From assembly GCF_051903065.1 (NCBI RefSeq), contig NZ_CP178438.1: a DNA stretch of 64,000 nucleotides; one strand, 5' to 3'. Origin of the DNA: Escherichia coli (GTDB lineage: Bacteria > Pseudomonadota > Gammaproteobacteria > Enterobacterales > Enterobacteriaceae). Position 1 is the first letter of the stretch. Every line of letters begins with the position of its first letter. This document shows, in pieces, positions 19,301-22,300 of this stretch. The position numbers were made by a program.

Positions 19301-22300
19301 CACGCCTCTCCCCGCTTTGCCACGGACATATCAATATGCTCGGCCATTATTCCTTCACGCTGGCAGAACTGGTGACCAAAGGACATCTGAGACCATTAAA
19401 AGAGGCGTCAGAGGCAGAAAACGTTGCTTAACGTGAGTTTTCGTTCCACTGAGCGTCAGACCCCTTTTAAGGGTTTTAGTCAGTAGTTTTGTTCGGGCCT
19501 TGCTCGTGTTTGGTTTTCTTTGCGGCAGCGCCAAAAGTTAACGTTCGCTAGTTTGTGAGTTAGTCGCTGGCGGCCAAGGCGGTAGCGTTGTTCCTTCTGG
19601 TTCATTGGCTTCGCTGGTAAACGGTTTTTAAGGTTCCAGCCCATTTCCTGGTATCGCAGCTGGCTGGTTTAGTTTTTAATATTGCACAGGGTTGCCGCTG
19701 TTTGGCATCGCTTGGCGGCAGTGCCGCGTGGGTTTAGTGTGTTGCGGCTAACAATGCGCATCACTCGCAGCCTGCGGCTGCTGGGGCGTCAAACGCTGTC
19801 GCGTTTTTCCGCCCGTGTGCTTTGCGTTAAGCCAATACAAGGAATAAAAACTGTGCCATTTTCTGAAGATGAAAAAGCAGTATTGCTAAGTGTTAAAGGT
19901 GTAGGGCCAAAAGTTGTGGAGCGCTTAGAGCAAATGGGAATTGTAACGCTATCTCAATTGGCGAATGCTGAAATAAATAATATTTTGGAGCATGGCGCAA
20001 ATATCACCGGCTCAACTTGCTGGAAAAATAGTCCGCAAGCAAAGAATGCCATTACTTCTGCAATTCAAGCAGCGCGCAGTTTCCCCCTGACGAAAACTGT
20101 AAAAAAGAAAATATAATTTCTTTAAAATTTACATGGAACCGGTCTACGCCAGTAAGTTTATAGTTGCTTTTTGTTTCGGAAAAACGGCTTAACAAGGTTA
20201 TCAAGCGGATGGTTTTTAAGTAGCTCTTTTGCCATTCCGCTTCGCTCCATTTTATGGCAAAAGTGCTACTTAAAAACCGCCGCTTATAACGGCGTTCTGC
20301 TAACACCTAAAAGCGGACTTTACAGCCTTAAAGTTGGAATGTCTGCAATTGGCACAAAGCCACTATTCGATACAGTGGTACTTTTAGTGAATTAGGTGGT
20401 GCTGTCAGTTTGCAACGAGTGGTGCAACCGACTTGCAAATAGGTGGTGTATTAAATGGAATTAACCACCCACCCTCTATGGTGTAGAAAATCTGGCTATC
20501 GCGCCCGGCTACAGGTCACAAAGCTAGTCTGAATAAAAATTCACAGTCATGAAAGATCAACTTTTAGTCAAATTTGATTTCTGATTAGGTGTAATGTGAT
20601 GCCCCTCATTGCGAAAAGGGCATTTAATTAATCTGCTAAAAAAACACTACTTGTGTGATTAAATGTCAAGCTAAAGTTGTTTCATCGCTTTTGATGCAAA
20701 AAAAATAATGTAGGTATAATTTAACGTGGGAGCATTGCCGGTGTTCTCGAGTGAAATTGGCGAAGCCATTGAGTGCCGGGTTAACCACTGGATAGATAAT
20801 TTTCCTTTTATCTCGTAAAGCGAGCGCCAATTTGATGCACTTATAAAAAACCATCAAATTAATGCGATAAACACTGTGTAAAGCGTTGCGCCCAACTCTC
20901 AATCGACTCAACCGGAATGTTTCCAGCCTCTGCCCCTTGGTGCTTGGGGTGATTAATGCCGATGTGACAGTTTTCACCAAACAACCCATCCAATAACTCG
21001 TTAGGCCAAGATATTGATTTTGCGACCACACCTTTGCGGATAAGAGTGAAATGCTCGATCCAATCCCGTGCATCTGAGCCAAAAATCACTTTGGTTGAGA
21101 GCATTTTGATACCATCTGAGGTATCAACTTCTAACAGCACTACATCAGTCTGCATGTAACGAAGCCGAACGGCCTTAATCGCCCTTTGTGTGCCATTCTC
21201 CAGAAGGTGTTGTTTGCTGCGACCGACCTTAGGCAATGGTAGTGTTTCTTCATGAAGAATTCGGCATTTATGTTTGAACTTTAAAACCTGCAGCATTCGA
21301 TCGAAACTCTTGAAACGACTTGCAAATTGTCGCTCTCGGTCCGTAACGTCCTCTTTGCCACCAACATCTGCCGCAGGCAAGCTGCCGCCTTGATGAGGTT
21401 CTCCTGTGCTCACGTCCCTGCCTGCCTCTTTTTCGGCAAGTTCATCAAAAATCAGATTTGGGCGTTCTTTAACCACTTCCTGTTTGTAAACCCTGCTGGG
21501 CTTTGTAAAGCGGCACCAGGTTAAGTCTCCTTCTAGCATCAATGTTTCATTTTCATCAGAAGCGGATTGTTCGTCATCAATTTCAAACTCTTCGTCAGTT
21601 TGTTGCCAGGCGGTACCGCCAGAGCCACTGCGAGCTTTGCTGTCAGTTTGCTTGTTGTTGACAAAATCCGGATGAATGAACGCAACGCTCTCTGGCAAAT
21701 TGACGTCAAAATCAATCCCGACAATTTCTTCCACTAAATAATGGCTTTTACCGGTGTTGTACCTACCGCGAACATGTAATTTCCAGTTTGTCATCGTAGG
21801 TGGCGTAAAGCTAAAACGCCAGCTCTCCAAACGATCTCTGAACTCACGCGTTTCTTGATAGCGTTGGAAGATGCTTTGGTAAGAGGCCAATGCCTGAGGA
21901 TCTGTCAGTAGCCATGCCAAAAGTTGCTTAGTGCCACTTTGATCAAACGCAGATTTTGGAAAAGTACTGGTTTGTAGCACATGAATATTGACATGATTTT
22001 GTTCAGGTACGGGTTGAACATCAAATTCTAAGGGTAAGGTGGCACTGCTCAAACATGCCCGACAGAGATAGGAATTGACCAAGAAAATAGCCCTGGCAAG
22101 TTCAAGCTGTGGTATAACAATCCAATCGTCTTTGTTACCCCAACAGCAGAAAGCATTCTGAATTCCATCTTTATCTCGGATTGACTTAAAGCTGCTGATC
22201 TCTGGGAAATCAGCCAATTTTGCTTCGATAAGCTTATAGCCAGGTTCAAATGTGATTACTCTGTCTATACGGCGCGATTGTTTTTTCTGACTATTCGGCA

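What the first reader, a model, noticed from the sequence alone, without database searches (positions are those of the whole stretch)
19853..20116. Small helix-hairpin-helix protein gene as a probable cassette
An ~87-aa ORF with a GVGPK-type HhH DNA-binding motif, a good RBS and a GTG start lies between the attC-like sequence ending at about 19835 and the long palindrome at 20187..20300. Its AT-rich composition differs from the GC-rich leader. Function is unknown; small HhH proteins can be DNA-binding accessory or competence-related factors.
Basis: inference. Interest (0 to 1): 0.4.

Follow-up and report, generated by a model that had tools for sequence, protein, structure and literature searches.

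The report
Integron cassette encoding small HhH protein
The ORF is real: it is an ordinary mobile integron gene cassette, sitting in a Tn7-like transposon, that encodes an 87-residue helix-hairpin-helix protein from a widespread but uncharacterised bacterial family.

Summary
The 87-codon ORF (GTG 19853 to TAA 20116) has an AAGGA ribosome-binding site 9 nt upstream. It has more than 130 homologues that share its MPF N-terminus. dN/dS against its nearest relatives is 0.10-0.14.

The ORF lies in a 468-bp integron cassette, 19827..20294. The cassette starts TTAAGCC, the exact complement of the R'' box GGCTTAAC of its own attC (20187..20300). That attC folds as a canonical bottom-strand hairpin. 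It belongs to a homogeneous attC family (85-95% identity) that flanks unrelated cassettes in environmental arrays, one beside a Cellvibrio-like integrase.

The array belongs to an intact integrase that is not class 1, inside a Tn7-like element at glmS. The same element is 100% identical in 7 E. coli genomes and one Proteus. Canonical Tn7 has no counterpart of the gene.

The protein is a single five/six-helix (HhH)2/SAM-like domain. It carries a GVGPK hairpin and an invariant GS[ST]CWKNSPQA motif. It most likely binds DNA without sequence specificity; its physiological role is unknown. It is not ComEA. RefSeq starts for the gene (106 or 120 aa) are over-extended into the preceding attC.

Verdict: an ordinary, correctly spotted cassette of low to moderate interest.

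The parts
19746..19832 (+). attC of the preceding ORF-less cassette (R'' GGCTAAC, R' GTTAAGC). The crossover lies between G19826 and T19827, which defines the 5' boundary of the HhH cassette.
   Evidence: Heuristic attC scan plus fold. Nearly identical to an attC in the class 1 integron of pEC8-NDM-1, with identity ending at GTTAA.
19827..20294 (+). The complete HhH gene cassette (468 bp).
   Evidence: The first bases TTAAGCC (with G19826: GTTAAGCC) are the 8/8 complement of GGCTTAAC at 20186-20193, as expected for a circularised cassette. The 5' end TTA(A)GCCAATACAAGGAATA is shared with metagenome relatives that have different upstream DNA.
19839..19843 (+). Shine-Dalgarno-like AAGGA, 9 nt before the GTG start.
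   Evidence: Read from the sequence. Conserved in relatives L005, L093 and L094.
19853..20116 (+). CDS for the 87-aa HhH-family protein (GTG start, TAA stop).
   Evidence: AF2 model with mean pLDDT 80. The C-terminal tail 80-87 is not conserved and has low confidence.
20187..20300 (+). attC of the HhH cassette. R'' GCTTAAC 20187-20193; L'' GTTATCAAGCGG 20197-20208 (C20202 gives an extrahelical G on the bottom strand); L' CCGCTTATAAC 20280-20290; R' GTTCTGC 20294-20300 (non-consensus after GTT).
   Evidence: Bottom-strand fold with R box, unpaired spacer, 5-bp L box, single-G bulge and an AT/C bulge 6 bp further up on the R''/L'' arm. Member of an attC family at 85-95% identity in 14 metagenome contigs.
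14493..14514 (+). First 22 bp of the ORF-less cassette that precedes the HhH cassette, split by the Tn3-family insertion.
   Evidence: Starts at G|TTAGCAGG exactly as in pEC8-NDM-1. Junction read.
14515..19464 (+). Tn3-family (blaTEM) transposon inserted into the ORF-less cassette, with 5-bp target duplication TTTTA. It separates the HhH cassette from intI/attI.
   Evidence: Terminal inverted repeats and duplication read. Absent from Proteus H110 and from 5 E. coli genomes, present in 2 E. coli genomes.
19465..19826 (+).
   Evidence: About 80% identical to an ORF-less cassette of pEC8-NDM-1. No conserved ORF. No Rfam match.
10829..11788 (-). Intact integron integrase (319 aa) that heads the array.
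   Evidence: TIGR02249 integron integrase, 420.8 bits against a cut-off of 265. 42% identity to IntI1.
20859..22466 (-). tnsE of the Tn7-like element. The conserved transposon backbone begins at 20349.
   Evidence: RefSeq annotation of identical DNA. Backbone boundary from the alignment with Klebsiella plasmids that carry other cargo.

Best explanation
Window 19827..20294 is a promoterless integron gene cassette. It is the last unit of the array headed by the intact integrase at 10829..11788, and the array is carried as cargo by a Tn7-like transposon inserted at glmS.

How it moves (inferred): the attC (20187..20300) would fold on the bottom strand into the hairpin that integron integrases recognise. 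The cassette would then be excised or inserted by recombination at G|TT.

Origin: the attC type points to the cassette pool of sedentary chromosomal integrons of environmental gammaproteobacteria (one Cellvibrio-like example).

Product: translation starts at GTG 19853 and gives an 87-aa single-domain protein. It has a classical HhH hairpin (GVGPK) and a second hairpin carrying the invariant motif GS[ST]CWKNSPQA, together forming an (HhH)2/SAM-like helical bundle. The most likely activity is sequence-independent binding of DNA through the two hairpins.

What is shown: cassette identity, boundaries, start codon, purifying selection, fold class.

What is inferred: DNA binding (about 0.5). Expression is also inferred. 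In this window Pc-driven transcription must cross a 4.95-kb Tn3-family insertion, so read-through from tnpA is more plausible. The cellular role is unknown.
For: Boundaries:
- GTTAAGCC at 19826-19833 is the exact complement of GGCTTAAC at 20186-20193.
- The upstream attC is shared with a class 1 integron, with identity ending at the crossover.

attC:
- Bottom-strand fold dG -32.9, z -6.9, with R box, spacer, L box and extrahelical G and T-containing bulges on one arm, like the dfrA1 attC folded as a control.
- 14 metagenome contigs hold the same attC at 85-95% identity next to unrelated ORFs, each copy with its own R''/R' boxes. They include arrays (L101, L102, L110) and a 363-kb contig with an integron integrase 83% identical to a Cellvibrio MAG IntI.

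Cargo status:
- Klebsiella plasmids with the same tnsABCDE lack the integron; identity starts at 20349.

Gene:
- Homologues found.
- Aligned MPF start.
- dN/dS 0.10-0.14, and GTG is also the start in the nearest relatives.

Fold:
- AF2 mean pLDDT 80.
- HHH_5 is matched by 25 of 32 members.
Against: - No experiment bears on any of this.
- The R' box in situ is GTTCTGC, which departs from GTTRRRY, so the cassette may excise poorly.
- Pfam HHH_5 is just below the gathering score for this protein (25.6 against 27).
- The conserved core (residues 1-76) is near neutral (pI 6.5), and the best structural matches include protein-protein interaction modules. DNA binding is therefore not secure.
- Most family members are ordinary chromosomal genes, not cassettes. 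attC-like hairpins lie downstream in 5 of 80 loci against 4 of 80 control regions, and no neighbour is conserved. Context gives no functional clue.
- No promoter-like site was found between 19400 and 19853.
Confidence: 0.85

Rival explanations
1. The domain is a protein-protein interaction module, like the NusA acidic repeats or SAM domains, rather than a DNA binder. It would act by docking onto a host protein such as RNA polymerase or a recombination or repair factor.
Against: The best-conserved parts are the two hairpins, including a canonical GhG HhH hairpin. Sequence profiles hit only nucleic-acid enzymes: Topo V, Pol IV, Pol X, RadA/Rad51.
Confidence: 0.25
2. The protein is a miniature DNA-repair enzyme, an AP/dRP-lyase-like HhH domain. 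The invariant lysine of the CWKNSPQA motif would be the nucleophile, as in the 8-kDa domain of Pol beta or the (HhH)2 domains of topoisomerase V.
Against: All matches cover only the generic HhH part. No catalytic alignment was shown. This rests on recalled biochemistry, not on a test made here.
Confidence: 0.08
3. The true product is the longer protein annotated in public records: 120 aa from ATG 19754, 106 aa, or 144 aa from TTG 19682.
For: The frame is open from 19682. RefSeq and nr carry 120-aa and 106-aa versions.
Against: The extension lies inside the attC of the preceding cassette, upstream of the cassette boundary at 19827. Most of the 31 aligned homologues begin at the MPF position, and the extra residues of the few that do not (including the 106-aa nr version of this same gene) share no similarity. 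The Shine-Dalgarno site serves GTG 19853, and relatives in other contexts also start with GTG there.
Confidence: 0.04
4. The gene belongs to the Tn7-like transposon backbone, as a counterpart of ybfA/ybfB/ybgA of Tn7, and is not a cassette.
For: It lies between the resistance cassettes and tnsE, where Tn7 has its ybf/ybg genes.
Against: There is no similarity to the Tn7 region by tblastn or blastn. Klebsiella plasmids with the identical tns genes lack it. It has a full attC of an environmental family.
Confidence: 0.02

Closest known systems
Integron gene cassettes of unknown function from sedentary chromosomal integrons (as in Vibrio, Xanthomonas or Cellvibrionaceae arrays)
   Same: One promoterless ORF followed by an attC of about 114 bp. 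It has R''/L''/L'/R' boxes and extrahelical bases. Its boundaries lie at G|TT. The attC belongs to a homogeneous family shared by unrelated cassettes.
   Different: Here the cassette has been recruited into a mobile integron on a Tn7-like transposon that circulates in clinical E. coli and Proteus. Its in-situ R' box (GTTCTGC) is non-consensus.
Class 2 integron of canonical Tn7 (intI2*-dfrA1-sat2-aadA1-orfX, then ybfA/ybfB/ybgA, then tnsE)
   Same: An integron lies at the cargo end of a Tn7-family element next to tnsE. dfrA1 is the first cassette. The element is inserted at glmS.
   Different: - The integrase is intact.
- TnsE is only 45.5% identical to that of Tn7.
- The cassettes after dfrA1 are two S1-type proteases, an ORF-less cassette and the HhH cassette.
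- There is no homologue of ybeA, ybfA, ybfB or ybgA.
(HhH)2/SAM-like domains: Rad51/RadA N-terminal domain, NusA AR1/AR2, TfoX C-terminal domain (3bqt-like)
   Different: It is a stand-alone protein. The second hairpin carries a family-specific invariant motif, GS[ST]CWKNSPQA. No sequence-level membership of TfoX_C or of any solved family was found.
Pfam PF11731 'Cdd1 / Pathogenicity locus'
   Same: Small HhH proteins. UniRef labels several homologues 'Pathogenicity locus', and 7 of 32 aligned members hit the model at E<0.001.
   Different: This protein scores 17.3 bits against a cut-off of 25.5. The name comes only from a gene that flanks the C. difficile toxin locus and implies no tested function.

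Membership tests
Integron gene cassette | 3' attC with inversely matched R''(RYYYAAC)/R'(GTTRRRY) and L''/L' boxes | tested here: met
   R'' GCTTAAC matches 4 of 4 consensus positions. L'' and L' pair. R' is GTT followed by the non-consensus CTGC in situ, but the cassette's own first bases restore GTTAAGC.
Integron gene cassette | The bottom strand folds into a hairpin with an unpaired central spacer and extrahelical bases on the R''/L'' arm | tested here: met
   dG -32.9 kcal/mol, z -6.9. There is a single-G bulge after the 5-bp L box and an AT/C bulge 6 bp further up. The layout matches the dfrA1 attC folded as a control.
Integron gene cassette | Lies in an array downstream of an integron integrase, co-oriented with the other cassettes | tested here: met
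   intI 10829..11788 (-), then dfrA1, two protease cassettes, the ORF-less cassette and the HhH cassette, all on the + strand.
Integron gene cassette | Discrete mobility: the same unit or the same attC type occurs in other arrays, with identity ending at G|TT | tested here: met
   The attC family occurs with unrelated ORFs in 14 contigs. The 5' boundary is shared with relatives in other contexts. The neighbouring cassette's boundaries match a class 1 integron.
Integron gene cassette | IntI-catalysed excision and integration | not testable with these tools
   Needs a recombination assay.
HhH superfamily (Pfam HHH_5, PF14520) | Score at or above the Pfam gathering threshold | tested here: inconclusive
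   25.6 bits against 27 for this protein. 25 of 32 relatives match at E<0.001. The hxxhxGhGxxxhxxh pattern is present, and the model shows helix-hairpin-helix at residues 5-28.
Pfam Cdd1 'Pathogenicity locus' (PF11731) | Score at or above the gathering threshold of 25.5 bits | tested here: not met
   17.3 bits, covering model positions 6-50 of 86 only.
ComEA (competence DNA receptor) | HHH_3-type tandem HhH domain, with an N-terminal membrane anchor or signal sequence | tested here: not met
   No HHH_3 hit even at E<=10. The ComEA-related structure 2duy matches 17 residues at E 0.047. No N-terminal hydrophobic segment is visible in the sequence.
TfoX C-terminal domain (PF04994) | Match to the Pfam model | tested here: not met
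Canonical Tn7 ybeA/ybfA/ybfB/ybgA genes | Sequence similarity to the Tn7 region between aadA1 and tnsE | tested here: not met
   Best tblastn E 2.2 and best blastn E 0.058, over 15-19 letters.

The most novel reading that the evidence does not exclude
The family may be an uncharacterised DNA-transaction factor. These are stand-alone proteins of about 80 aa, present in hundreds of proteobacterial species, with an invariant GS[ST]CWKNSPQA motif. Candidate activities are a TfoX_C-like partner in DNA uptake or recombination, or a minimal lyase. Capture of the gene by a clinically circulating integron would then mean it gives a selectable benefit, for example in horizontal gene transfer or DNA-damage tolerance.
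Probability: 0.1. Interest if true: 0.55.

Novelty: new member of a known kind. Interest (0 to 1): 0.27.

Why it matters
The finding adds a precisely delimited cassette of unknown function to a little-described mobile integron. That integron has an intact integrase that is not class 1 and sits on a Tn7-like transposon found in clinical and animal E. coli and Proteus.

It also documents a direct link between that array and the cassette pool of environmental chromosomal integrons, through a shared attC family.

It corrects an over-extended start codon in public annotation.

It defines a conserved, widespread small HhH family with a sharp signature motif that nobody appears to have studied.

None of this changes current understanding of integrons.

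Tried and rejected
- Rfam scan of 9000..21000 gave only chance miRNA-like hits on the attC palindromes.
- PADLOC gave no hit for the HhH protein. PHROGs matched only the HhH of a DNA polymerase family. BFVD fold search found nothing at E<=0.001.
- The PDB profile search returned only generic HhH stretches.
- Gene-neighbourhood analysis of 80 genome loci found no conserved neighbour across genera. Synteny was lineage-specific only, for example mutH and a TerC-like gene in Providencia (my reading of the sequences) and an ErpA/IscA-like gene in Neisseria.
- Domain-fusion hunt among 804 clusters: the long hits match only the first HhH, repeatedly. Most 'long' full-length hits have no extra Pfam domain and are probably mis-called starts. 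The one real fusion is with TfoX_C.
- My heuristic attC finder recovered the dfrA1, ORF-less and HhH attCs. It missed or scored weakly the protease-cassette attCs, so its 5-of-80 census is a rough figure.
- The nearest metagenome relatives (L005, L093, L094) have no convincing attC downstream, and I could not decide whether they are cassettes. L009 looked like an array from its gene layout, but I could not confirm attC sites there.
- Literature searches by protein accession, and for this Tn7-like/integron combination, found no description. The Tn7-like papers found concern canonical Tn7 derivatives.
- The afdb50 fold library was unavailable.

Full report
**Setting**

The window carries a Tn7-like transposon inserted next to glmS.
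- tnsA-E occupy 20859..28562 on the minus strand, and glmS occupies 28720..30549.
- At its cargo end lies an integron. It has an intact integron integrase of 319 aa at 10829..11788 on the minus strand (TIGR02249, 420.8 bits against a cut-off of 265).
- Downstream on the plus strand come dfrA1, two S1/trypsin-like protease cassettes, an ORF-less cassette and the ORF in question.
- A 4,950-bp Tn3-family (blaTEM) element sits at 14515..19464, with a TTTTA target duplication. It splits the ORF-less cassette.
- The uninterrupted array is 100% identical in Proteus mirabilis H110 and in five E. coli chromosomes. The exact Tn3 junction of the window occurs in two further E. coli genomes.

**Observation**

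The ORF 19853..20116 is as described.
- It has a GTG start, 87 codons and a TAA stop. AAGGA at 19839-19843 lies 9 nt upstream of the GTG.
- The segment LLSVKGVGPKVVERL is a textbook HhH hairpin. Pfam HHH_5 gives E 1.8e-5 and 25.6 bits, just below the gathering score of 27. 25 of 32 relatives match HHH_5 at E<0.001.
- The ORF is 40.5% GC and the upstream 19465..19826 is 53% GC.

It is a real gene.
- The word-indexed search found 132 homologues.
- An exhaustive profile search found 804 clusters at 50% identity with E<=1e-3, and 205 with E<=1e-10, nearly all 75-120 aa.
- 337 species-representative genomes encode a relative.
- Against the three nearest relatives (79-90% amino-acid identity), dN/dS is 0.10-0.14.

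**Start codon**

In the alignment of 32 family members, most proteins begin M-P/R/S-F at the position of GTG 19853. The few with extra N-terminal residues, among them the 106-aa nr version of this same gene, show no similarity in those residues. The nearest relatives also use GTG there. Public annotation gives 120 aa (ATG at window 19754) or 106 aa. Those extra residues are translated from the attC of the preceding cassette and lie upstream of the cassette boundary, so the extensions are almost certainly artefacts.

**Cassette boundaries**

- The preceding attC (19746..19832) ends in GTTAAGC, and the crossover point is G19826|T19827.
- This attC is nearly identical to an attC in the class 1 integron of plasmid pEC8-NDM-1, where it is followed by dfrA1. 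The two sequences diverge just after GTTAA.
- The cassette therefore begins TTAAGCC. Its own attC begins GGCTTAAC (20186-20193), the perfect complement of GTTAAGCC. This is what a cassette that once circularised must show.
- The 3' crossover is G20294|T20295.
- The cassette is thus 19827..20294, 468 bp. It comprises a 26-nt leader, the ORF, a 70-nt spacer and the attC.

**The attC**

- The bottom strand of 20180..20305 folds at -32.9 kcal/mol, against a mean of -14.2 for shuffles (z -6.9, none of 200 as good).
- The fold runs in this order: an R-box stem, a 2-nt unpaired spacer, a 5-bp L box, a single bulged G, 6 bp, an AT/C bulge, then a long stem and loop.
- Both bulges lie on the R''/L'' arm. 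The dfrA1 attC of the same array, folded as a control, has the same layout.
- That this layout (unpaired central spacer, extrahelical G and T, variable terminal structure) defines recombinogenic attC sites is established knowledge (Bouvier et al. 2009; MacDonald et al. 2006), cited from memory.
- The in-situ R' box is GTTCTGC. It keeps the GTT triplet but departs from the RRRY positions.

**Origin of the attC**

- A scan of metagenome contigs with 25 nt of the stem found 16 loci.
- One locus (L109) is this same element.
- Fourteen others carry the whole about 110-nt attC at 85-95% identity but no HhH gene.
- Each copy has its own R''/R' boxes, for example GCCTAAC...GTTAGAT and ACATAAC...GTTAGGC.
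- Several contigs are evident arrays of unrelated small ORFs with two to four copies: L101, L102 and L110.
- L100, part of a 363-kb contig, has an integron integrase 2.2 kb from the copy. Its nearest named relative is a Cellvibrio sp. MAG integrase at 83% identity. It is 50.6% identical to the window's integrase.
- L102 has a different integrase (43% identical to that of L100), so the attC type is not tied to one integrase.
- I infer that the HhH cassette was recruited from the cassette pool of environmental gammaproteobacterial chromosomal integrons.

**Cargo, not backbone**

- Klebsiella plasmids carry identical tnsABCDE with an RND efflux cluster instead of the integron. Identity with the window starts at 20349, which is 54 bp after the last crossover.
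- Canonical Tn7 has three unrelated hypothetical genes between aadA1 and tnsE. Neither tblastn nor sensitive blastn finds any similarity to the HhH cassette. Its TnsE is 45.5% identical to the one here.

**The protein**

- AlphaFold2 with the family alignment gives a confident model (mean pLDDT 80, pTM 0.66). It has helices at 5-13, 19-28, 33-38, 41-52, 56-59 and 61-76, and a disordered, non-conserved tail at 80-87.
- The first hairpin (residues 14-18) is the GVG HhH hairpin.
- The second hairpin (53-60) carries the invariant motif GS[ST]CWKNSPQA.
- Sequence profiles reach only generic HhH stretches of Topo V, Pol IV, Pol X and RadA.
- No PADLOC hit and no significant viral structural match were found.
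- One natural protein fuses this domain to a TfoX C-terminal domain.
- The conserved core has pI 6.5.
- Across 80 genome loci the gene is solitary, with no neighbour conserved beyond the genus level. attC-like hairpins downstream are no more frequent than in control regions, 5 against 4 of 80.
- The family is therefore mainly an ordinary chromosomal gene of Proteobacteria (Providencia, Pseudomonas, Yersinia, Neisseria, Pectobacterium, Citrobacter and others). Only a sub-branch has become a cassette.

**Mechanism**

- I commit to a promoterless cassette encoding a stand-alone (HhH)2-type domain that binds DNA without sequence specificity through its two conserved hairpins.
- Cassette identity, boundaries, start codon and coding status are shown.
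- DNA binding is inferred, at about 0.5.
- The main rival is a protein-docking role like NusA-AR or SAM domains (about 0.25).
- A lyase-type enzymatic role is a speculative minority reading (about 0.08).
- No promoter-like site precedes the gene. In this window transcription from the integron promoter would have to traverse the Tn3-family element, so read-through from the co-oriented tnpA (ending at 19431) is the more plausible source. This was not tested.

**Comparison and novelty**

- As a genetic object, this is a standard integron cassette.
- As a protein, it belongs to the HhH superfamily, in a family without a characterised member.
- The label 'Pathogenicity locus' on some homologues derives from Pfam Cdd1, named after a gene that flanks the C. 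difficile toxin locus. It carries no functional evidence.
- It is not ComEA and not a TfoX_C member by sequence.
- I rate it a new member of a known kind, of low to moderate interest.

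Noticed in passing
window 14493..14514 + 19465..19826: An ORF-less cassette (native length 379 bp) is about 80% identical to an ORF-less cassette in the class 1 integron of E. coli plasmid pEC8-NDM-1, and both start at the same G|TTAGCAGG crossover. No ORF is conserved between the two copies and there is no Rfam match. Its attC matches the attC of the next pEC8 cassette (a 90-aa membrane protein), so relative to pEC8 one ORF is missing, with the junction at the R''/L'' boxes. It could be a regulatory or RNA cassette.
   Followed up: partly
window 10829..11788 (-): The integron integrase is intact (319 aa). It is 42% identical to IntI1, and the best listed non-self hit among plasmids is 53.6% (two further records fall in the 60-80% band and were not examined). 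It therefore appears to be neither class 1 nor a close relative of the common mobile classes, yet it heads a dfrA1 array in clinical E. coli and Proteus. I found no paper describing it.
   Followed up: partly
window 12609..13496 and 13599..14390 (+): Two consecutive cassettes encode S1/trypsin-like serine proteases (RefSeq names). They have weak PADLOC matches to the protease part of LmuA and to RT-protease defence genes. These are unusual cassette contents for a resistance integron.
   Followed up: no
window 14515..19464: A Tn3-family blaTEM transposon with a TTTTA target duplication is inserted inside the ORF-less cassette. It cuts the last two cassettes off from the integron promoter. Only 2 of the 7 E. 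coli genomes that carry the element have this insertion.
   Followed up: yes
window 20295..20348, and 20349 onward: The same Tn7-like backbone (tnsABCDE 100% identical) occurs on Klebsiella NDM plasmids with an RND efflux/MFS cargo instead of the integron. The cargo/backbone boundary is at 20348/20349. The 54 bp between the last attC crossover and that boundary are unexplained.
   Followed up: partly
window 19754..20116 (RefSeq WP_306804508.1 and the nr 106-aa version): Public annotations start this gene inside the preceding attC (120 aa or 106 aa). The evidence here supports the 87-aa product starting at GTG 19853.
   Followed up: yes
L005 650..700 (also L007, L008): In the nearest metagenome relatives, the upstream transglutaminase-like gene ends in a roughly 33-bp mini-palindrome, GCTAAC-AAAGCAATGCACGCGATTGCGC-GTTAGC. 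It lies directly before the same cassette-like 5' end (TTAGCCAATACAAGG). It may be a very short or degenerate attC. No convincing attC follows the HhH gene there.
   Followed up: partly
L038, L034, L029 and other Neisseria loci: In about six Neisseria-type loci the family member is followed about 69 bp downstream, on the same strand, by an ErpA/IscA-like iron-sulfur carrier gene. This is the only recurrent same-strand neighbour seen outside one genus-level lineage. The family has one invariant cysteine.
   Followed up: no
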